Shown: piece by piece, positions 38,481 through 50,385 of the stretch
How positions within the stretch are numbered: position 1 is the first letter of the stretch
Layout of the letters: every line of letters begins with the position of its first letter
Assembly (NCBI GenBank): GCA_946223355.1
Contig: CAMIPB010000006.1
Location: 15,675-79,674, forward strand
Length of the DNA stretch: 64,000 bases
Reading direction: 5' to 3'
DNA from: an uncultured Corynebacterium sp.
Lineage (GTDB): Bacteria; Actinomycetota; Actinomycetes; Mycobacteriales; Mycobacteriaceae
Program-made: the position numbers and the translations under genes
Notes under the pieces: model-generated
The model's input: only the letters and a program-made list of their open reading frames with translations
The model's database searches: none
What the model was told of the DNA's origin: nothing

Positions 38481-40238
38481 TTGTTGTTCCACCACAACGG
38501 ATATGTTTCCGAAGACCCCCGCGTCTTACCGGACAACCGCCAGTTCCCGGAGGAGTTACCCGATGAAATGGATGTTCTTATCGTCGGCTCTGGCCCTGCA
38601 GGCATGATTGCCGCCGCTTCGCTTTCAATGTTTCCAAATGTGCACACGCGCATTATTGAAAAGCGCCCCCACCGGCTCGAACTAGGTCAAGCGGACGGTA
38701 TTCAATCGCGTTCCGTAGAAACATTCCAGGCCTTCGGATTTGCTAATGAGATCATTGATGAAGCGTACGAAATCACGGAAATGGCTTTCTGGCGTAGCGA
38801 TGAAACCGGCGGTATTGTCCGTGGTGAACGCCCCATTGATGACGAACACGGCATCTCCGAGTTCCCACATCTCATCGTTAACCAAGCACGAGTGCTCGAC
38901 TATTTTGCACGTTATATGCTTCGCTCACCGTCACGTATGAAGCCTGACTATGGCTGGGAATTCGTCTCTCTCGAGGTGGACCGAGAAGACTCCCACCCAG
39001 TGCACGTGACAGTGACAGACGGGCAGCAAGAGCGGGTCATCAAAACCAAGTACTTAGTGGGTGCTGATGGAGCAAAATCCAAGGTCCGCAAATCTATTGG
39101 TCGCAAACTCGCGGGCCAGTCTGCAAACCACGCATGGGGAGTAATGGACGTGTGCGTGGACACAGATTTCCCAGATTGGCGCACCAAATGCGCAATTCAC
39201 TCGCAGGCCGGTTCCATTCTGCACATCCCTCGTGAAGGCGGATTCTTGTGCCGAATCTACGTGGATTTGGGAGAGGTTCCGGAAGGAAGCGATATCCGGA
39301 AGACCCCACTGGAAGATGTCATTGAGAAGGCCAATCAAATCTACGCGCCTTATTCCATTGATGTGAAAGAAGTAGCGTGGCACTCCATTTACGAGGTGGC
39401 GCACCGATTAGTGGATGGCTTCGACGACGACCCAGAAGACCCACGCATATTCCTTACCGGCGATGCCTGCCACACTCACTCTGCGAAGGCAGGGCAGGGC
39501 ATGAATGTTTCCATGCAAGATGGCTTCAACATCGCTTGGAAGCTGGGACACGTCCTCGATGGCCGCGCTCCACAAGAACTGCTCAAGACCTACGGCACGG
39601 AACGTCAACCTGCTGCGCAGAATCTCATTGATTTTGACAAAGAATGGTCGAGCCTCATGGCGGACCCCAACGCTACTCAAGAGGTCGCGGACTATTACGT
39701 AGAAGCAGAAGCCTTTGCCGCAGGCATGATGACGGAGTACTCCCAAAACCTAGTGGTCTCCGATACGGCGCATCAGGATCTGGCAACTGGATTCCCTGTC
39801 GGCCGACGCTTTAAGTCAGCTATCGCCACTCGCCGCTGTGACGCCCGAAAGCTGCACCTCGGACATGAGCACCAGGCAGACGGCCGCTGGCGCATTTACG
39901 CATTCGCTGACACCGACAAGACCAAACTCAACGAGTGGGCGAAGTCCTTCAACCTTCCCGTTGATTTTGCAGATATCAAAGTCATCTACCAACAGCCATG
40001 CCACGACATCGAGGTGCTGGATGCGCCCGAGCTCTTCCGGCCCAAGGTAGGCACCCTTAATATCCCTATGTGGGAAAACGTGTGGACGGGAGAAGATATT
40101 TTCGCTGAGCGTGGCATTTCCCGCGACGGTGCAGTCGTTGTGGTCCGGCCTGATCAGTACGTCGCTGGAGTCTTTCCTTTGGACGAAAGCGTAGAAAATT
40201 TCTTCAAACGCTTGCGGGATCCGCAGACTGTTGAGTAA
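38481..40238 (+). CDS. FAD-dependent aromatic-ring monooxygenase, PheA/TfdB (phenol 2-monooxygenase) family; candidate (hydroxy)phenylacetate hydroxylase
   Basis: 585 aa. GSGPAG FAD fold, DG and GD motifs (LVGADGAKSKVR, FLTGDACHTHSAKAGQG), and a C-terminal thioredoxin-like extension typical of the family. Confidence 0.75.
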   Translation: MLFHHNGYVSEDPRVLPDNRQFPEELPDEMDVLIVGSGPAGMIAAASLSMFPNVHTRIIEKRPHRLELGQADGIQSRSVETFQAFGFANEIIDEAYEITEMAFWRSDETGGIVRGERPIDDEHGISEFPHLIVNQARVLDYFARYMLRSPSRMKPDYGWEFVSLEVDREDSHPVHVTVTDGQQERVIKTKYLVGADGAKSKVRKSIGRKLAGQSANHAWGVMDVCVDTDFPDWRTKCAIHSQAGSILHIPREGGFLCRIYVDLGEVPEGSDIRKTPLEDVIEKANQIYAPYSIDVKEVAWHSIYEVAHRLVDGFDDDPEDPRIFLTGDACHTHSAKAGQGMNVSMQDGFNIAWKLGHVLDGRAPQELLKTYGTERQPAAQNLIDFDKEWSSLMADPNATQEVADYYVEAEAFAAGMMTEYSQNLVVSDTAHQDLATGFPVGRRFKSAIATRRCDARKLHLGHEHQADGRWRIYAFADTDKTKLNEWAKSFNLPVDFADIKVIYQQPCHDIEVLDAPELFRPKVGTLNIPMWENVWTGEDIFAERGISRDGAVVVVRPDQYVAGVFPLDESVENFFKRLRDPQTVE

Positions 40239-40248
40239 GGTTTCTCAT

Positions 40249-40287
40249 ATGGGTATGAACTTGAACAACTGGTGGCTCGCTGCATAG
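40249..40287 (+). CDS. trpL: trp operon leader peptide MGMNLNNWWLAA, with tandem Trp codons
   Basis: ATG GGT ATG AAC TTG AAC AAC TGG TGG CTC GCT GCA TAG. The stop codon lies inside attenuator hairpin 1. Not in the ORF track because it is too short. Confidence 0.7.
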   Translation: MGMNLNNWWLAA

Positions 40288-40348
40288 CGAGCTTATCGAC
40301 GTACCCTAAAACACCGGCTCGCTATATCGCGGGCCGTTTTTGTTTTTC
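40275..40348 (+). promoter_or_regulatory. trp transcription attenuator: pause/anti-antiterminator hairpin, alternative antiterminator and intrinsic terminator
   Basis: Hairpin 1:2 is GCUCGCU-GCAU-AGCGAGC at 40275..40292. Segment 2 (AGCGAGC) can alternatively pair with GCUCGCU at 40317..40323. The terminator is CGGCUCGC-UAUAUC-GCGGGCCG at 40315..40336, followed by UUUUUGUUUUU. Confidence 0.7.
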
Positions 40349-40374
40349 TGTGCCCGCGGGATCAAGGAAAAACA

Positions 40375-41604
40375 ATGAAAGACGTAGCAGAATTCTTTAT
40401 TCAAAACGCGGACGCACACAACTCTATTTTGCTGGAAACAGCAGGAAATACCTCTATCGCTGTGCTTTCTTCTGCTGGAAAGCTCACGCGGCAGGAAGGC
40501 ATCACCACTTTTACCCCGTTCACGGATAAAGGACACGCCGTCGCTGACTTCCTCGCAGAAAAGTTTGCCGTTTCACGTGAAACATTGCCCATGGTTTTCC
40601 CTCAATCCGATGGTGGGAACATCATCACGGCGCTACAAAATGAAGGCCACTTTTTAGCAGGAACATTCCATTTTAGTTACTCCGAGGACCTCCCAGATTT
40701 CGAATTCTTCCTTGCGGAAGAACACTTAAGAATCGAAGGGGATATCAGCGCGGACATCGCAAAGCCCGGTCCCGCTACAGCTACCGCGAACAAAACCGAC
40801 GCCGAATTTGCACGCGACGTCGAGAAGCTCCAACAACACATTGCGGATGGAGAAATCCGTCAGGTAGTCCCGTCGCGCACGTTCACCGTGGAGTGCCCAG
40901 AGCCATATCAGGCCTACCAACGCATACGCCATAACAACCCTAGCCCGTATATGTTTTTTGTCCGGGGAGAAGATTACACACTGCTAGGCGGTTCGCCAGA
41001 ATCCAGCTTGAAATTCGATGCTGTGACCCGAGACATCACCATTAACCCCATAGCTGGAACTCGACCACGTGGCCAAACCGGTGAGGAAGACACGCGCTTT
41101 GAACGAGAGTTGCGGACGGATCCTAAAGAGATTTCAGAACACACCATGCTCATCGACGTCGCCACGCAGGACCTCGAAAAAATCGCGGACAACGTGCACG
41201 TCACCAATCTTATGAATGTTGAGCGCTATTCCAGGGTCATGCACCTTGTCTCAAGCGTGACTGGAACTCTCCACAACTCGCTATCCGCCGCTGATGCATA
41301 CCGTGCCTGCATGAATATGGGAACTGTATCCGGCGCACCTAAAAAGCGAGCAACTCAATTCCTTGCTGAGATCGAACAATCTCCCCGTGGACCATTCGGT
41401 GGGGCAGTGGGATACTTCGCACCCGATGGCTCATTTGATTCCTGCATCGTGATTCGCAGTGCATACGTGCGCAACGGAATCGCTTCCGTGAGTGCAGGAG
41501 CAGGAGTGGTTAAAGAATCAGAACCCCAAGCAGAAGCTGATGAAACCTTCTTCAAGGCCCGGGCAGTTCTCGAAGCAATTGCAGACGTGGAGGTAATCCG
41601 ATGA
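40375..41604 (+). CDS. trpE: Anthranilate synthase component I
   Basis: Chorismate-binding-enzyme C-terminal core (GGAVGYF...), an LLE(T) feedback-region motif near the N-terminus, and a position behind trpL. A compact 409 aa. Confidence 0.85.
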   Translation: MKDVAEFFIQNADAHNSILLETAGNTSIAVLSSAGKLTRQEGITTFTPFTDKGHAVADFLAEKFAVSRETLPMVFPQSDGGNIITALQNEGHFLAGTFHFSYSEDLPDFEFFLAEEHLRIEGDISADIAKPGPATATANKTDAEFARDVEKLQQHIADGEIRQVVPSRTFTVECPEPYQAYQRIRHNNPSPYMFFVRGEDYTLLGGSPESSLKFDAVTRDITINPIAGTRPRGQTGEEDTRFERELRTDPKEISEHTMLIDVATQDLEKIADNVHVTNLMNVERYSRVMHLVSSVTGTLHNSLSAADAYRACMNMGTVSGAPKKRATQFLAEIEQSPRGPFGGAVGYFAPDGSFDSCIVIRSAYVRNGIASVSAGAGVVKESEPQAEADETFFKARAVLEAIADVEVIR

Positions 41605-42620
41605 AAACTAACTTGATCGCTTATCTCAACAATCCCTCGCCGACCATCGAGGAGGCGTACGACGTCTTCTATCCCTTGACCAACGGTGAATACGACGATG
41701 TGCATATCACGGCACTTCTAGCCACCATCCGCACCCGCGGCGAAACGTTCGCCGATATTGCCGGAGCAGCAAGGGCCTTCATCGACGCCTCTCGAGAATT
41801 TCCCATTACTGGGGACGGCATCCTCGATACCGCTGGAACTGGGGGAGACGGCACCAACACTTTCAACATCTCCACTGGCGCATCGCTCATCGCTGCAGCA
41901 GGTGGAACCAAGATCATCAAATGCGGCAACCGAAGCGTGTCGTCTAAGTCCGGCTCTGCTGACGTATTAGAAGCGCTCAATATACCGTTGGACTTAGATA
42001 TCCAGCGTGCGAAGAATCAATTTCAAGCATCCAATTTCACGTTCTTGTTTGCACCCGCCTATCATCCGGCTGTCGCCCACGTGATGCCCGTTCGTCGGGC
42101 CCTTAAAATCCCCACCATCTTCAACACGCTCGGGCCGATCTTGTCCCCAGCCAAGCCAGAGTTCCAAATCATGGGAGTGGCCAATCCACACCAGGGAAAC
42201 ATTATCGCCCAAACTTTCCGCGACTTAGGCCGCACTCGAGCACTTGTAGTTCACGGCGCTGGAACCGACGAGGTCGCGGTACATGGAAACACACTCGTCT
42301 GGGAACTTAACGAGGGAGAAATTTCCCATTACGAGCTCACTCCCTCAGATCTCGGAACATCGCAACATTCCCTAAGTGATCTGGTTGGGGGAAACGCGAA
42401 ACATAACGCCCGCATCCTCCGCGACGTGCTCGCTGGGAAAGGTACCACTGCTCAACGAGATGCCTTGGCTGCCAACGCGGGAGCCATGTTCTATGTAACC
42501 GGAAGCGCCAGCACTTTCCGGGAGGGTACCGAGCGCGCCAAATCCCTTCTCGCCGACGGCACAGCCCACAACTGGATTACTACCCACGAGGAAACCAACT
42601 ATGCTTCAGACAATCGTTGA
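41601..42620 (+). CDS. trpD: Anthranilate phosphoribosyltransferase
   Basis: GTGGDGTNTFNISTGASLIAAAGG PRPP-binding motif. The start overlaps the trpE stop (ATGA). Confidence 0.9.
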   Translation: MKTNLIAYLNNPSPTIEEAYDVFYPLTNGEYDDVHITALLATIRTRGETFADIAGAARAFIDASREFPITGDGILDTAGTGGDGTNTFNISTGASLIAAAGGTKIIKCGNRSVSSKSGSADVLEALNIPLDLDIQRAKNQFQASNFTFLFAPAYHPAVAHVMPVRRALKIPTIFNTLGPILSPAKPEFQIMGVANPHQGNIIAQTFRDLGRTRALVVHGAGTDEVAVHGNTLVWELNEGEISHYELTPSDLGTSQHSLSDLVGGNAKHNARILRDVLAGKGTTAQRDALAANAGAMFYVTGSASTFREGTERAKSLLADGTAHNWITTHEETNYASDNR

Positions 42621-43833
42621 GAACAGAAAGACTCACCTCGACTCCATCACGTACGGGGAAACCACGCCATCCACCCGTTCCTTCGAGGACGCACTGCGCG
42701 GAACTAATCGCATCATCATGGAGTGCAAGGCGGCGTCGCCCAGCAAGGGAAAAATTCGCGATAACTACCAACCGGGGAAGCTCGCGCGAATCTACTCCCG
42801 CTACGCAGATGCAATCTCAGTCCTGTGCGAGCCGACCTATTTCAACGGCCACTATCACCACCTGCGTACGGTAGCCATGTCCACGCACTTGCCGGTGCTG
42901 TGCAAGGATTTCATCGTCGATGAGGTCCAGGTGCGCGCGGCTCGCTACTTCGGTGCGGACGCAATTTTGCTCATGCTTTCTGTGCTTTCCGACGCCCAGT
43001 ACCGCCACCTCGCAGAAATCGCCCGCTCGCTCAACCTCGATGTGTTGACGGAAACGGCGACGGAGAATGAAGTTCGCCGAGCAATCAATCTAGGTGCGAA
43101 GATCATCGGCATCAACAATCGGAACCTCCACGATCTTTCCATCGACCTAACCCGTACCAACCGTCTCCGCACGCTCATTCCTGCCGATCGCATCGTGGTC
43201 GCTGAATCTGGGATCAGCTCAGTGCAGGACATCCGCAGCACAGACGCAAACGCCTTCCTTGTTGGTTCCCACCTGGCTCAACAGCCAGACGTGGACATAG
43301 CAATCCGAAAACTCATCTATGGCGAGAACAAAGTGTGCGGACTAACCACGCCGGAAGCCGCCCAGGCAGCCCGAGCAGCGGGCGCGGTCTACGGCGGCCT
43401 CATCTTCGAACCATCCTCCCCACGCTATGTTTCACGTGAAACCGCAGAAAACATCATGGCCGCCGAGCCGGACCTCAACTACATTGCCGTCACGCGCTCG
43501 ACTGTGCCCATCGATCTCCCGGTCCAACAGCATGGGAACGGGCCAGCAGATTGGCGCGCCGTTAATCCGGAAACCGATCCGATTCCCGACGGACAACTCG
43601 TCCTCGACACCGGGGGAGGCACCGGAAAAACCTTCGACTGGAACACCATCCCCAAACACGCCCTCTCCCGCAGCCTCCTCGCCGGCGGACTCAACCTCTT
43701 CAACCTCACAGATGCACTCAACGTCCGCACCCGAGGACTTGACCTCAACTCAGGAGTAGAGACCAACGGAGAAAAAGACCCCACCAAACTAGCCCACGCA
43801 TTCGACATCATAAGGAATCACAAAAATGACTAA
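42601..43833 (+). CDS. trpC: Bifunctional indole-3-glycerol-phosphate synthase / phosphoribosylanthranilate isomerase
   Basis: N-terminal IGPS ([13 protein letters not shown]) and C-terminal PRAI ([15 protein letters not shown]...). Confidence 0.85.
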
Positions 43834-44962
43834 GCTTCCCGCATACTTCGGAGAGTTCGGCGGACAATTTGTCCCTGAAGCCCTCATCCCAGCACTTGAT
43901 CAGCTCGAAGACGCCTTCATTGATGCGCAAAACGATCCCGAATTCCAGGCCGAGCTTGAACGACTATTCCGAGACTACCTCGGGCGTCCCACTCCGATCA
44001 CCGAAATCAAGTCCGGCGGCAAAGCCCGCATCTTCCTCAAGCGTGAAGACCTCGTCCACGGTGGCGCACACAAGACCAACCAGGTACTCGGCCAAGCCCT
44101 ACTCGCAAAACGAATGGGTAAAACCCGCATCATCGCCGAGACGGGTGCCGGACAGCACGGAACCGCAACCGCACTTGCCTGCGCACTCCTGGATCTTGAG
44201 TGTGTCATCTACATGGGTGCAAAGGACGTCGCCAGGCAGCAACCCAACGTCTACCGAATGGAGCTAATGGGAGCAAAAGTCATCCCAGTGGACTCCGGCA
44301 GCGGCACCCTCAAAGATGCTGTCAACGAAGCGCTCCGTGACTGGACTGCCACCTTCCACGAATCCCACTACTTGCTCGGGACCGCCGCAGGCCCACACCC
44401 TTTCCCCACCATTGTTCGCGAGTTCCACCGCGTCATCTCCAGGGAAGCAAAGGCACAGCTTCCTGAGCTTCCCGACGTCGTTGTTGCCGCCGTCGGCGGA
44501 GGCTCCAACGCCATCGGAATGTTCGCGGAGTATATTGACGAACCAACCGTCGAACTCGTCGGCTGCGAACCCGGCGGAGACGGCATCAAACACGGCGCGA
44601 CCATCAACAATGGAAAAATTGGCATCCTGCACGGGTCCAAGTCCTATCTCATGCGCACCGCCGAAGGAAACATCGAGGAAAGCTACTCGATTTCCGCCGG
44701 CCTGGACTATCCGGGCGTCGGACCGCAACATTCCTACCTCGCTAAGACCGGCCGCGCGAAGTACGTTCCCGTCACCGACTCAGAAGCCCTAGCCGCATTC
44801 AAGCACTTGTCTCGGAATGAAGGAATTATCCCCGCGCTGGAATCCTCCCACGCATTGGCATACGCGCTAGCCCACAAAGACGAAGACAAGACCTTCCTCG
44901 TCTGCCTGTCCGGCAGGGGAGACAAAGACATCGACTACATCCGCAGCCTGGAGGAAAAATGA
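43826..44962 (+). CDS. trpB: Tryptophan synthase beta chain
   Basis: PLP-enzyme motifs [22 protein letters not shown] and GAGQHG. Confidence 0.93.
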
Positions 44963-45663
44963 TCCGTACACTCCCAACCCCAGCATTCGTTCCCTTCTTC
45001 ATGATTGGAGATGGAGACACCCTCGAACACGTCCGAATCGCCGTCGCGCATGGTGCCGACGCCCTCGAACTCGGCGTTCCCTTCTCCGATCCGGTGGCAG
45101 ATGGACCCGTTATTCAGGCCGCGCACCTGCGAAGCACGGCAACCTTCGAGGATTGCCTCGACGTCGTCAAGCAAATCCGGAGTGAGTTTCCCGATTTACC
45201 TATCGGCATGCTCGTCTACGGAAACATCATGTTCGCAACTGAAAATTTTCACGAGCGCCTCGCCCAAGCGGGTGCAGACACCGTGCTCATCCCAGATATT
45301 CCTGTGCGAGAAGCAACTCAACAAAACCACATCGACACGGTCTTCATTGCCCCGGCTTCCGCAGACGAAAAAACCCTCGAAAGCGTGGGAAAGGCTTCCA
45401 AGGGTTATATCTACGCCGTCGCCCGAGACGGCGTGACCGGAACAGACAAAAAAGCTATTGCCAACGCGGAGGCCATCCAAAAACTAAAGCAGTACGGTCC
45501 CGTCCTCGTTGGTTTTGGTATATCTACGCCAGCCGACGTCCGAAGCATCATGGATGCGGGAGCGGACGGTGTCATCGTGGGCTCCGCGACGATTAAAGCT
45601 ATTCAGGAGAACCGGCTGGCTGAGTTTGTTTCCGAGATGAAGGCGCAAACTTTTCGACGATGA
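44959..45663 (+). CDS. trpA: Tryptophan synthase alpha chain
   Basis: [17 protein letters not shown] active-site region. Coupled to the trpB stop. Confidence 0.9.
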
Positions 45664-46792
45664 GCGCAATAGCACCGTCGCCGGTGACGTTTGCGGCGGT
45701 GCCCACCGAGTCAATCACGATGTACGCGGCGATCATGAGGGCAACCATGGAATCGTTAAAGCCCATCATTTCGGATAAAAGTCCGGTAGCCACCATCACG
45801 GCACCGCCTGGAACGCCCGGGGCAGCAATCATCGTGATTGCGAGCAGCAGCATAAACCCGATTGCCTTAGAAGCAGACACATCCATTCCAGTCATATAAA
45901 TGAGGGCAAACGCATACAACATGAGCTTGATCATCGAGCCGGAAAGATGAATAGTTGCGCATAATGGAATGACAAATCCCGTGACCTCTTCCGAGGTTTT
46001 GTTCTTCATCGCGCATTCGCGGGTGATCGGAATTGACGCAGCCGAAGATGACGTGCCAAGAGCAGTGAAATAGGCCGGCATCATATTCTTCAGTGCGGTA
46101 ATTGGGTTCCTACCTGTCAAGGCTCCGGCAACGACGTACTGGAAAACCAAATAAATCAGCGTCATTACAACAGACAGCAGCAGAACCTTGGAGAAGGAGC
46201 CCAGCACCGCCAGCACACTGCCATTCATCCCCAGTGTGACAAACATACCGAAAATATAGATGGGGAGCAGCGGGACAACGAAGCTCCAGATAATCTTGAT
46301 GACCACTTGCTCGAGCTCGACCGACGCATTAAATAGGGTATCCGCTTTCACCACCGTCATGGCTAGTCCAATGCAGAACGACAGCAAAAGCGCAGTCATA
46401 ACCTCGAATGGTGGCGCCATCTCCACGGAAAAGTATGGCGTGATTGCGCCTTCATCGATATCCGCGATATTTTTTGCCATGTCTTCTCCACGCAGGAGCC
46501 ACGGATACAGCCCGACGGACACGCCGTAACTAATCAATCCCGCTAGGATTGTTGAGCCATATGACAGCCCGACAGTAATTCCCAACAGCTTTCCCGCGCC
46601 CTTGCCGAGCTTTGCAATAGCCGGAGCAATCAAAGCGAAAATCAACACAGGAACGAAAAAGTTCAGAAAGCCACTGAATAAGCCATTAATCGTGGCAAAT
46701 ACTTTGCCTAACCATTCGGGGAAGAACGTACTGCACAGCGCACCGAGTAGTACTGCAATAACAATTTTGGTCAGTAAAGAGGGTTTAGGCAT
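45599..46792 (-). CDS. Dicarboxylate/amino acid:cation symporter (DAACS) family transporter (SstT/GltP-like)
   Basis: 397 aa with 8–10 TM helices. Family fold is inferred from hydrophobic-hairpin architecture. Convergent with trpA, overlapping it by 65 nt. Confidence 0.65.
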   Translation of the reverse strand: MPKPSLLTKIVIAVLLGALCSTFFPEWLGKVFATINGLFSGFLNFFVPVLIFALIAPAIAKLGKGAGKLLGITVGLSYGSTILAGLISYGVSVGLYPWLLRGEDMAKNIADIDEGAITPYFSVEMAPPFEVMTALLLSFCIGLAMTVVKADTLFNASVELEQVVIKIIWSFVVPLLPIYIFGMFVTLGMNGSVLAVLGSFSKVLLLSVVMTLIYLVFQYVVAGALTGRNPITALKNMMPAYFTALGTSSSAASIPITRECAMKNKTSEEVTGFVIPLCATIHLSGSMIKLMLYAFALIYMTGMDVSASKAIGFMLLLAITMIAAPGVPGGAVMVATGLLSEMMGFNDSMVALMIAAYIVIDSVGTAANVTGDGAIALIVEKFAPSSRKQTQPAGSPE

Positions 46793-49236: not shown

Positions 49237-50385
49237 TCACTGCGACCCGTCTTTCTGCCGAAGAGTTTGAGCAGATGTGGCAACAAGCTGCTTCCTAGCC
49301 TCCATCTTCTGGGCAAATGACTGCACCCAGTTCCGAGACTTCGGGGCGAGTGGGCCGGTAGCTTCATCAAACACCCAAGTTCCATCCTCGAAGAGCCAGT
49401 AAATATCCCCGGTGATGGGATCCAAGATATAAAATGCACGTCCATCTGTTTTTACGTTGTGATGGTGTTGGCATAGAGACACGAGGTTGGCCGGGGTGGT
49501 AGGGCCTTTGTGCCACTCCACGCGGTGATCCTTTTGTGCACGGTGAGCGGGAACGCTGCACCCCGGCCAGCGGCACGTTCCATCCCTTCCTTCGACAAAT
49601 CGCCGCATAGGTTCGGTCGGAGTGTAAGAGAGGGTGACAGAAGTTGATGCCGCGTCGATGTTTCGAACGTTTCCGGTAATGTCCATCTGCTTCCATCCCA
49701 TTCCGGGAATCCAAACAGGCGAGTTGGGGACATCGTAGGCTTGATAGGCGTTGATTACTACCGTGGTGTTGGTGTCTTCAATAATTGCCTTGACTAGAGC
49801 CTCTGGAAGGGAGATTGACTCGTTTCGGGCGATTTTCCGCACGTGTTCTTCAATAGTCCGCAACTCGTCTGGCGCAAGACACGCACCGAGGAAAGCCTGG
49901 GTGTCAGAAAAATAGTCGAATTCCACACGTGGTTGTTCCGCTGCGGGTTGCTCGATTAGGTCGAGGGTACGAAGCAGCTCCACAATTTTTGCACGAATAC
50001 GAGCAGCACTAGGCATGTGCTGATTTTCTCTAGAAGGCGTAAGGAAGTCGGTGAGCATCTCGTCAGCCGCGTGCAGTGCCTTTTCGGAGGCAACTAGCAA
50101 GGCTCTATCTATCGCCAACAAGCGAGACGTATCCAAGTGCCACATGTTTTCGTGGAGCGCTTTAAGGCGAGGCAACTCTAAAAGCCGAAAATGCGCCATA
50201 AGGATATTGGTGACTTGCTTTGCAGGCATGCCGGTGAACATGGAGATGCGGGCGACGGCAATCTCGATATCGTCGGAAGGCTCGGGCAAGTGCTCCTGGA
50301 ACATCTCGTATTCCAGTCTGCGCAGAGTTAAGGATTGTTGGGCTAAGGGATTGTTAGGGGAGCAGTGTGCATAATAGGGTTTCAT
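49237..50385 (-). CDS. HNH endonuclease domain protein with an N-terminal DUF222 (actinobacterial 13E12-type)
   Basis: C-terminal HNH motif CRWPGCSVPAHRAQKDHRVEWHKG...NLVSLCQHHHNVK. Confidence 0.75.
   Translation of the reverse strand: MKPYYAHCSPNNPLAQQSLTLRRLEYEMFQEHLPEPSDDIEIAVARISMFTGMPAKQVTNILMAHFRLLELPRLKALHENMWHLDTSRLLAIDRALLVASEKALHAADEMLTDFLTPSRENQHMPSAARIRAKIVELLRTLDLIEQPAAEQPRVEFDYFSDTQAFLGACLAPDELRTIEEHVRKIARNESISLPEALVKAIIEDTNTTVVINAYQAYDVPNSPVWIPGMGWKQMDITGNVRNIDAASTSVTLSYTPTEPMRRFVEGRDGTCRWPGCSVPAHRAQKDHRVEWHKGPTTPANLVSLCQHHHNVKTDGRAFYILDPITGDIYWLFEDGTWVFDEATGPLAPKSRNWVQSFAQKMEARKQLVATSAQTLRQKDGSQ

What the first reader, a model, noticed from the sequence alone, without database searches (positions are those of the whole stretch)
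40239..40374. Unannotated trp leader peptide (MGMNLNNWWLAA) and a three-hairpin attenuator upstream of trpE
A 12-codon ORF with tandem TGG-TGG ends inside a perfect 7-bp hairpin, GCUCGCU-GCAU-AGCGAGC.

The 3' arm can alternatively pair with GCUCGCU at 40317. That GCUCGCU forms the 5' arm of a GC-rich terminator (8 bp + UUUUUGUUUUU) ending 26 nt before the trpE start.

This is a classic ribosome-mediated Trp attenuation switch, easily missed by ORF callers. It sits 10 nt after the hydroxylase stop, so trp promoter sequences must lie inside the hydroxylase 3' end.
Basis: seen in the sequence. Interest (0 to 1): 0.55.

Follow-up and report, generated by a model that had tools for sequence, protein, structure and literature searches.

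The report
Corynebacterial trp operon leader-peptide attenuator
The short stretch in front of the tryptophan-synthesis genes is a real but ordinary tryptophan-sensing switch: a 12-codon leader ORF with two Trp codons plus three competing RNA hairpins, of the type long known in Corynebacterium.

Summary
ORF 40249-40287 encodes MGMNLNNWWLAA. Helices 1:2 (40274-81/40286-93), 2:3 (40284-92/40317-25) and 3:4 (40315-22/40329-36, then UUUUUGUUUUU) exist, exclude one another, and fold better than shuffles (z -3.0, -4.4, -3.9).

About 45 other non-redundant Corynebacterium trpE loci carry a homologous leader ending NWWW[L/R]A-stop, with the same GC-rich segments. A covariance model built from 16 of them, without this lineage, hits the 64-kb window once: 40264-40347, 26.7 bits, E about 1e-4. 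Against a strain whose flanking genes differ at 6-11% of third codon positions, the 136-nt leader differs at 1 base.

Such attenuators were predicted for Corynebacterium spp. in 2005 and studied experimentally in C. glutamicum, so this is a new member of a known kind.

Local peculiarities:
- It has two Trp codons, where every other corynebacterial leader examined has three.
- The stop codon lies one codon later.
- The layout is very compact.
- A probable leaderless trpL promoter (TTGCGG-18-TAAGGT-7-ATG) overlaps the stop codon of the upstream hydroxylase gene.

Noticed aside: the operon lacks trpG, and its TrpE has a shrunken N-terminal half. Trp-dependent read-through is untested.

The parts
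40212..40217 (+). -35-like hexamer TTGCGG of the putative trpL promoter, inside the 3' end of the hydroxylase coding sequence
   Evidence: It lies 18 nt upstream of the -10 box. A TTGCGN hexamer sits at 17-18 nt in L082 and in several other corynebacterial loci. This is inferred; the transcription start was not mapped.
40236..40241 (+). -10 box TAAGGT (TAnnnT), overlapping the hydroxylase TAA stop codon
   Evidence: It lies 7 nt upstream of the leader ATG. All 46 of 46 non-redundant leaders have TAnnnT 7-8 nt upstream of an in-frame ATG or GTG, against a background of 1-2% per start codon.
40249..40287 (+). trpL leader ORF, MGMNLNNWWLAA plus TAG; probably translated from a leaderless transcript that starts at A40249
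   Evidence: The sister lineage L082 has MGIQNNWWWLA, and other corynebacteria end in NWWW[L/R]A.
40270..40275 (+). Two tandem regulatory Trp codons, TGG TGG
   Evidence: In alignment A2 the window lacks one of the three TGG codons present in all other corynebacterial leaders.
40274..40281 (+). Segment 1, GGCUCGCU
   Evidence: It pairs with 40286-93 at -12.6 kcal/mol, z -3.0.
40284..40293 (+). Segment 2, AUAGCGAGCU; it contains the stop codon UAG at 40285-87
   Evidence: It pairs either with segment 1 or with segment 3, the latter as 9 perfect bp at -14.0 kcal/mol, z -4.4.
40315..40325 (+). Segment 3, CGGCUCGCUAU
   Evidence: It is the 3' arm of the antiterminator and the 5' arm of the terminator.
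40329..40336 (+). Segment 4, GCGGGCCG, the 3' arm of the terminator
   Evidence: The 3:4 helix is paired in 100% of cells across 18 leaders.
40337..40347 (+). U-run of the intrinsic terminator, UUUUUGUUUUU
40352..40358 (+). Possible segment 5, GCCCGCG, a perfect complement of 40328-34 in segment 4; role unknown
   Evidence: The duplex is -16.2 kcal/mol and 0 of 300 shuffles reach it. A similar element occurs in most type-A corynebacterial leaders, paired in 94% of cells.
40364..40377 (+). trpE Shine-Dalgarno sequence (AAGGA) and ATG start codon
   Evidence: The sequence AAGGAAnAACAATG is conserved in L082.
40375..45663 (+). The regulated operon: trpE (409 aa), trpD, trpCF, trpB, trpA, with no trpG
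   Evidence: NCBIfam matches. tblastn with C. tuberculostearicum Trp proteins finds no TrpG hit in the window.

Best explanation
This is the trpL leader and transcription attenuator of a Corynebacterium trp operon. It is homologous to the attenuator known in C. glutamicum and predicted across the genus.

Proposed course of events:
1. Transcription probably starts at the A of the leader ATG (40249). The promoter's -10 box overlaps the stop codon of the upstream hydroxylase gene, so the leader is translated from a leaderless mRNA.
2. When charged tRNA-Trp is plentiful, the ribosome reads through the two UGG codons to UAG (40285-87). There it covers segment 2, or releases so that 1:2 re-forms. 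Segment 3 then pairs with segment 4, and RNA polymerase terminates at the U-run, 27 nt before trpE.
3. When charged tRNA-Trp is scarce, the ribosome stalls at 40270-75. It covers segment 1 but not segment 2. Segment 2 pairs with segment 3 as soon as segment 3 is transcribed, the terminator cannot form, and trpEDCFBA is transcribed.

The switch is kinetic. At equilibrium the terminator fold is the more stable one.

Shown here: the anatomy, the homology, the sequence conservation, and the energetics under ribosome masking. Inferred: the transcription start, ribosome stalling, and the Trp response.
For: - Anatomy and folding.
- The downstream genes are trpE/D/CF/B/A.
- Homologous leaders ending NWWW[L/R]A-stop, with the same 1:2, 2:3 and 3:4 architecture, occur in about 45 non-redundant Corynebacterium loci, including the sister lineage L082 (MGIQNNWWWLA).
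- Pairing is kept in 89-100% of cells, against 21-55% when the partners are slid.
- A leave-out covariance model hits the window only at 40264-40347 (26.7 bits, E 1.2e-4).
- The best plus-strand Rfam hit, though sub-threshold, is Trp_leader RF00513.
- The leader differs at 1 of 136 nt from a strain whose flanking genes differ at 6-11% of third codon positions.
- Ribosome-masked folding reproduces the switch.
- Literature: classical trp attenuators were predicted for all Corynebacterium genomes then analysed (PMC1262725); C. glutamicum trpL is regulated by attenuation (PMC11802643, PMC11995493); C. diphtheriae trpL is MTNMNAHNWWWRA (PMC5784534).
Against: - No expression data exist for this organism.
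- There is no compensatory (two-sided) covariation, because the paired segments are nearly invariant. The structural support is therefore conservation and energetics only.
- With the whole leader transcribed, the terminator fold (-18.6 kcal/mol) beats the antiterminator (-14.0 kcal/mol), so the switch must rely on co-transcriptional kinetics.
- With a generous ribosome footprint (3' edge at +15 from the A site) stalled at the second Trp codon, only about 4 bp of 2:3 remain.
- The E. coli-type promoter scan found no sigma-70 promoter.
- Rfam gives no hit at gathering score. It gives none for the other corynebacterial leaders either.
Confidence: 0.9

Rival explanations
1. The hairpin and U-run are simply the intrinsic terminator of the upstream hydroxylase gene, and the WW-containing mini-ORF and the alternative pairings are chance.
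For: The hydroxylase gene has no terminator of its own, and the hairpin lies 77 nt after its stop codon. In relatives such as L020 the hydroxylase gene is followed by its own GC-rich terminator.
Against: The mini-ORF, its NWW(W)LA-stop motif and all the segments are conserved in about 45 species in which the hydroxylase gene is absent or kilobases away. The covariance-model hit has E 1.2e-4. The 2:3 helix has z -4.4. The element can serve as a terminator for hydroxylase transcripts and still be an attenuator.
Confidence: 0.02
2. The element is a decaying relic. It has only two Trp codons and a shifted stop codon, and it sits in front of an eroding operon (no trpG, shortened genes), so it no longer regulates. 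It would be either a constitutive terminator or constitutively read through.
For: The window lineage has lost one of the three UGG codons. In C. glutamicum, changing the third UGG to a stop codon deregulates the operon (PMC11995493). The operon lacks trpG and TrpE is about 100 aa short.
Against: The leader is far better conserved than neutral sites between strains: 1 of 136 nt against 6-11%. In the alignment the last Trp codon, segment 1 and segment 2 occupy the same columns as in the three-Trp leaders, so the spacing from the last Trp codon to segment 2 is kept. All three helices are perfect or nearly so. From established knowledge, E. coli trpL works with two Trp codons. The trp ORFs are intact in several strains and in the sister lineage.
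Confidence: 0.05
3. Besides or instead of acting in cis, the roughly 100-nt terminated leader RNA or its peptide acts in trans, like rnTrpL and peTrpL of Sinorhizobium.
For: There is precedent in another phylum (PMC6614838, PMC7298713). The leader is very strongly conserved.
Against: Nothing in the data points to a target. The conservation is fully explained by the cis-acting switch.
Confidence: 0.03

Closest known systems
Corynebacterium trpL / trp attenuator (C. glutamicum cg4012/cg4042; C. diphtheriae MTNMNAHNWWWRA; predicted genus-wide by Seliverstov et al. 2005, PMC1262725)
   Same: The position in front of trpE is the same. The C-terminal peptide motif N-W-W-(W)-[L/R]-A-stop and the GC-rich segments GGCUCGC and GCGGGCC are shared. 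The 1:2, 2:3 and 3:4 logic and the U-run terminator are the same. So is the TAnnnT-N7-start geometry. The element is hit by a model built from other members.
   Different: It has two Trp codons, not three. A sense codon (GCA) stands where the others have the stop codon, so the stop lies 3 nt deeper, in segment 2. Segment 2 is GCGAGCU rather than GCGGGCC, which makes 1:2 and 2:3 perfect Watson-Crick helices. The layout is much more compact: 10 nt after the upstream gene, and 27 nt from the U-run to trpE, against roughly 100 nt or more elsewhere. The promoter overlaps the end of the upstream gene. The operon lacks trpG.
E. coli / enterobacterial trp operon leader (Rfam RF00513 Trp_leader)
   Same: The mechanism class is the same: a leader peptide with two tandem Trp codons near its end, a 1:2 hairpin, a 2:3 antiterminator and a 3:4 terminator. 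As in E. coli, the terminator is more stable than the antiterminator (established knowledge).
   Different: There is no significant sequence or structure match: 16.8 bits against a gathering score of 41. The leader is probably leaderless rather than Shine-Dalgarno-led. The peptide is unrelated apart from WW.
Other leader-peptide attenuators of Corynebacterium (ilvBNC, leuA, aroF/aroR)
   Same: They also use ribosome-mediated attenuation. Leaderless translation of the leader peptide has been reported for ilvB (PMC5784534; Morbach 2000, cited in PMC4046766).
   Different: They have different regulatory codons and different operons, and no sequence relationship was tested.

Membership tests
Classical ribosome-mediated (leader-peptide) transcription attenuator | A short ORF with tandem codons for the regulating amino acid close to its stop codon | tested here: met
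   The 12-codon ORF 40249-40287 has TGG TGG at 40270-75, three codons before the stop.
Classical ribosome-mediated (leader-peptide) transcription attenuator | Three mutually exclusive helices, 1:2, 2:3 and 3:4, with segment 1 overlapping the end of the ORF | tested here: met
   The helices are -12.6, -14.0 and -15.5 kcal/mol, with z -3.0, -4.4 and -3.9.
Classical ribosome-mediated (leader-peptide) transcription attenuator | The 3:4 helix is an intrinsic terminator (GC-rich stem plus U-run) upstream of the first structural gene | tested here: met
   An 8-bp stem with 7 G-C pairs is followed by UUUUUGUUUUU, 27 nt before the trpE ATG.
Classical ribosome-mediated (leader-peptide) transcription attenuator | A stalled ribosome frees segment 2, and a terminating ribosome masks it | tested here: met
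   In silico only. With the A site on either Trp codon and the ribosome's 3' edge at +11 to +13 (up to +15 for the first Trp codon), 2:3 forms in the transcript ending at 40327. With the A site on the stop codon, 2:3 cannot form and 3:4 does.
Classical ribosome-mediated (leader-peptide) transcription attenuator | Read-through responds to the supply of charged tRNA-Trp | not testable with these tools
   This needs RNA-seq, Term-seq or reporter assays with and without tryptophan limitation.
Rfam RF00513 Trp_leader (enterobacterial model) | Score at or above the gathering threshold of 41 bits | tested here: not met
   The score is 16.8 bits, E 0.82. Other corynebacterial trp leaders also give no Rfam hit. 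The element is therefore not filed under RF00513.
Corynebacterium trpL attenuator | A significant match to a sequence-and-structure model built from other members | tested here: met
   Model R1 was built from 16 leaders, with the window lineage and L082 excluded. It gives a single hit in 64 kb on both strands, at 40264-40347, 26.7 bits, E 1.2e-4.
Corynebacterium trpL attenuator | The leader peptide ends in N-W-W-W-[L/R]-A-stop | tested here: inconclusive
   The window has N-N-W-W-L-A-A-stop: one Trp fewer and one Ala more. The sister lineage L082 has the canonical NNWWWLA-stop. PMC1262725 accepts double or triple UGG repeats.
Corynebacterium trpL attenuator | The complementary triple gGCC - rGCy - GGCC in segments 2, 3 and 4 (PMC1262725) | tested here: inconclusive
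   Segments 3 (GGCUCGC) and 4 (GCGGGCC) fit. Segment 2 is GCGAGCU, not GCGGGCC. Its pairing is retained and even improved, G-U becoming A-U.
Corynebacterium trpL attenuator | [quoted passage not shown] | tested here: met
   trpE starts at 40375 and is followed by trpD, trpCF, trpB and trpA.
Corynebacterium trpL attenuator | A -10 box TAnnnT lies 7-8 nt upstream of the leader start codon (leaderless leader) | tested here: met
   The window has TAAGGT-N7-ATG. All 46 of 46 non-redundant leaders have such a box, against a background of 1-2%. The transcription start itself was not mapped.

The most novel reading that the evidence does not exclude
The attenuator may be a five-segment device rather than a three-hairpin one.

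A fifth segment (40352-58) is perfectly complementary to the terminator's 3' arm, and a similar element recurs in most corynebacterial trp leaders. In addition, the U-run can pair with the trpE Shine-Dalgarno region.

The antiterminated fold (2:3 plus 4:5) would then also control trpE translation or mRNA stability. That would give two-level control from one leaderless leader, packed into 136 nt in a trpG-less, shortened operon.
Probability: 0.12. Interest if true: 0.35.

Novelty: new member of a known kind. Interest (0 to 1): 0.15.

Why it matters
The main value is for annotation. The result marks a small regulatory ORF and an attenuator that gene callers miss. It sets the probable start of the trp transcription unit in an undescribed Corynebacterium lineage.

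It also adds a natural two-Trp, maximally compact variant to a family used in engineering tryptophan overproduction in C. glutamicum.

It does not change the understanding of attenuation.

Tried and rejected
- Rfam at gathering score on the whole window found nothing. The same search on five related loci also found nothing. Rfam therefore has no model for corynebacterial trp leaders, and the negative result is uninformative. At a relaxed threshold only a weak Trp_leader hit and a noise hit to the hsp17 thermometer on the minus strand appeared.
- The E. coli-type promoter scan found no promoter. I rejected this as evidence against a promoter, because corynebacterial promoters have TAnnnT boxes and weak -35 regions (PMC5784534), and the comparative geometry test was decisive.
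- The covariation tests found no two-sided compensatory changes, because the segments are nearly invariant. They neither add to nor detract from the model.
- I tested whether the antiterminator wins at equilibrium. It does not: -14.0 against -18.6 kcal/mol. A purely thermodynamic switch is therefore rejected in favour of a kinetic one.
- The organism could not be named. The exact-sequence cluster look-up returned no names. The species-representative genome collection has no TrpE closer than 45% identity. TrpB (83%) and TrpD (72%) place the organism in Corynebacterium.
- The primary papers, Neshat 2014 and Heery & Dunican 1993, are not held in the library. They are cited only through papers that cite them.
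- I searched for trpG in the window and found none.

Full report
**Observation**

- An ORF runs from ATG 40249 to TAG 40285-87 and encodes MGMNLNNWWLAA, with tandem TGG codons at 40270-75.
- GCUCGCU (40275-81), loop GCAU, and AGCGAGC (40286-92) form a perfect 7-bp hairpin, 8 bp with G40274-U40293. The stop codon straddles the loop and the 3' arm.
- The same 3' arm, extended to AUAGCGAGC (40284-92), is perfectly complementary over 9 bp to GCUCGCUAU (40317-25).
- CGGCUCGC (40315-22) pairs with GCGGGCCG (40329-36) and is followed by UUUUUGUUUUU (40337-47).
- The upstream ORF (38481-40238) ends 10 nt before the leader ATG. The U-run ends 27 nt before the trpE ATG at 40375.

Folding results are as follows.
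- 1:2 is -12.6 kcal/mol, z -3.0.
- 2:3 is -14.0 kcal/mol, z -4.4, and 0 of 200 shuffles fold as well.
- 3:4 is -15.5 kcal/mol, z -3.9, 0 of 200.
- The whole region is -46.6 kcal/mol, z -3.2, with 1:2 plus 3:4 as the minimum-energy fold.

The terminator scan reports this one hairpin.

**Context**

The downstream ORFs match these NCBIfam models.
- TrpE, 409 aa. Only the C-terminal chorismate-binding half matches, and the score is below the curated cut-off.
- TrpD, 339 aa.
- The TrpC/TrpF fusion, 410 aa.
- TrpB, 378 aa.
- TrpA, 234 aa.

The upstream ORF matches phenol 2-monooxygenase (NF006144, 839 bits).

**Homology**

A scan of one genome per species with the TrpE protein returned mainly Corynebacterium loci, at no more than 45% identity. 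In their upstream regions I found short ORFs ending NWWW[L/R]A-stop. Examples are MTSLNWWWLA, MKNTVNLWWWRA and MTDMKKMTTAWWWRA. Each is followed by the same GC-rich blocks...CGCGGGCC......GGCUCGC......GCGGGCC-UUUU.

Per-sequence folding recovers 1:2, 2:3 and 3:4 in most of them.

Closer relatives came from the protein collection.
- Strains with an identical or 97%-identical TrpE have the same leader.
- A sister lineage, L082, has a TrpE 52% identical, the same hydroxylase-trp synteny, and also no trpG. Its leader is MGIQNNWWWLA, with GGCUCGCU/GCGGGCU, GGCUCGC and GCGGGCC-UUUUGUCGUUUU.

In an 18-sequence alignment (A2) the window aligns throughout. Relative to the others it lacks one TGG. It also has GCA where they have the stop codon, with UAG following.

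Pairing is kept in these fractions of cells.
- 1:2: 89%
- 3:4: 100%
- 2:3: 100%

When the partners are slid by 1-3 columns, the fraction falls to 21-55%. There are no two-sided compensatory changes, because the segments are almost invariant.

A covariance model was built from 16 leaders, excluding the window lineage and L082. It finds exactly one hit in the 64-kb window on both strands: 40264-40347, 26.7 bits, E 1.2e-4.

Rfam has no family that reaches threshold, either for the window or for five other corynebacterial loci. The only plus-strand sub-threshold hit is Trp_leader RF00513, at 16.8 bits against a gathering score of 41.

**Selection**

I compared the window with the 97% strain (L081). 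The 136-nt leader region has one difference, T to C at 40248, the base before the ATG. Third codon positions of the flanking genes differ at 6.0-11.5%, and another intergenic spacer differs at 6%. The leader is therefore under purifying selection.

**Promoter**

In all 46 non-redundant leaders, a TAnnnT hexamer lies 7 nt (sometimes 8) upstream of an in-frame ATG or GTG. The background frequency is 1-2% per start codon. This is the geometry of a leaderless transcript.

In the window the layout is as follows.
- TTGCGG at 40212-17.
- An 18-nt spacer.
- TAAGGT at 40236-41, which overlaps the hydroxylase TAA stop codon.
- A 7-nt spacer.
- ATG at 40249.

L082 has TTGCGA-18-TACTAT-7-ATG.

Leaderless leader peptides are documented for ilvB in C. 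diphtheriae and C. glutamicum (PMC5784534; PMC4046766, citing Morbach 2000). For trpL, a separate transcription start in front of the leader is reported in C. glutamicum (PMC11995493).

The transcription start itself is inferred.

In relatives that carry the hydroxylase gene, it has its own terminator and lies 0.25-3 kb from trpL. The abutting arrangement is a compaction specific to this clade.

**Mechanism**

I ran ribosome-masked folding.
- With the A site on either Trp codon and the ribosome's 3' edge at +11 to +13 (up to +15 for the first Trp codon), the transcript ending just before segment 4 forms 2:3, at -10 to -14 kcal/mol.
- With the A site on UAG, 2:3 cannot form and 3:4 forms.
- Free RNA forms 1:2 plus 3:4.
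- Once the whole leader is present, the terminator fold (-18.6 kcal/mol) is more stable than the antiterminator (-14.0 kcal/mol).

The switch is therefore kinetic. From established knowledge, the same is true of the E. coli trp attenuator.

In alignment A2 the last Trp codon, segment 1 and segment 2 occupy the same columns as in the three-Trp leaders. The loss of one UGG therefore did not change the geometry that matters. From established knowledge, E. coli trpL also uses two Trp codons.

**Comparison with what is known**

- Seliverstov et al. 2005 (PMC1262725) predicted classical attenuators with two or three UGG codons, GC-rich terminators and conserved complementary triples upstream of the trp operons of all the Corynebacterium genomes then available.
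- Attenuation of the C. glutamicum trp operon through trpL, with three tandem Trp codons, is experimentally established. A mutation of the third Trp codon is used to deregulate the operon (PMC11802643, PMC11995493, PMC4046766).
- The C. diphtheriae leader is MTNMNAHNWWWRA (PMC5784534).

The window element is therefore a new member of a known kind, with minor variations: two Trp codons, a stop codon one codon later, segment 2 GCGAGCU, and extreme compaction.

**Side observations**

1. No TrpG homologue is encoded in the window. All 80 other loci have one; only the window lineage and L082 lack it in the operon.
2. TrpE keeps the catalytic half (residues 136-404 align to 1I1Q residues 236-512) and the LLE[ST] and NPSPYMF motifs. 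Its N-terminal half is about 100 residues shorter, through several deletions. TrpE is also the fastest-evolving gene of the operon between the two lineages.
3. A fifth segment, GCCCGCG (40352-58), is perfectly complementary to 40328-34. The duplex is -16.2 kcal/mol, and 0 of 300 shuffles reach it. A GCYCGCGG element recurs downstream of the terminator in most type-A leaders and is paired in 94% of cells. Its role is unknown.
4. In the window and in L082, predicted folds pair the U-run with the trpE Shine-Dalgarno region. They also pair GGGUAUG (40251-57) with CGUACCC (40300-06), a helix that encloses the 1:2 hairpin.

**Verdict**

The mechanism is the classical one. Novelty and interest are low.

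Noticed in passing
window 40375-45663; L082 1968-5811: The trp operon is trpE-D-CF-B-A with no trpG, and no TrpG homologue is encoded anywhere in the 64-kb window. All 80 other loci fetched have trpG. Only this lineage and its sister L082 lack it in the operon.
   Followed up: partly
window 40375-41604: TrpE is only 409 aa. The catalytic C-terminal domain is intact, but the N-terminal half is about 100 residues shorter than in other corynebacteria, through several deletions. It scores below the NCBIfam TrpE cut-offs. TrpE is the most diverged protein of the operon: 52% identity to L082, against 74% for TrpD and 78% for the hydroxylase. TrpCF, TrpB and TrpA are also shorter than their relatives.
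   Followed up: partly
window 40212-40249, and the leaders in L001-L082: All 46 of 46 non-redundant corynebacterial trp leaders have TAnnnT 7-8 nt upstream of an in-frame start codon. This implies leaderless trpL mRNAs across the genus. In the window the -10 box overlaps the hydroxylase stop codon.
   Followed up: yes
window 40352-40358 (with 40328-40334): A fifth segment, GCCCGCG, lies downstream of the U-run and is perfectly complementary to the terminator's 3' arm. It is part of the palindrome CCCGCGGG. A similar GCYCGCGG element is present in most type-A corynebacterial leaders. Its function is unknown.
   Followed up: partly
window 40251-40257 with 40300-40306, and 40339-40349 with 40363-40374: Two further predicted helices are shared with L082. 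GGGUAUG at the start of the leader ORF pairs with CGUACCC, enclosing hairpin 1:2. The terminator U-run pairs with the A-rich Shine-Dalgarno region of trpE.
   Followed up: partly
window 40236-40249; L020 5565-5830 and similar loci: In relatives the hydroxylase gene has its own GC-rich terminator and a spacer of 0.25-3 kb before trpL. In this clade that terminator is gone and the genes abut, which suggests deletional compaction.
   Followed up: partly
window 45599-45663: The 3' end of trpA (+ strand, ends 45663) overlaps by 65 nt the 3' end of a convergent ORF on the - strand (45599-46792; Pfam SDF, a sodium:dicarboxylate symporter family protein). This leaves no room for a terminator between them.
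   Followed up: no
window 49237-50385 (-): This ORF has an HNH-like motif near its C-terminus (...CSVPAHRAQKDHRVEW...CQHHHNVKTDG...). By eye it resembles the HNH endonuclease / DUF222 proteins common in actinobacteria. It was not checked with a tool.
   Followed up: no
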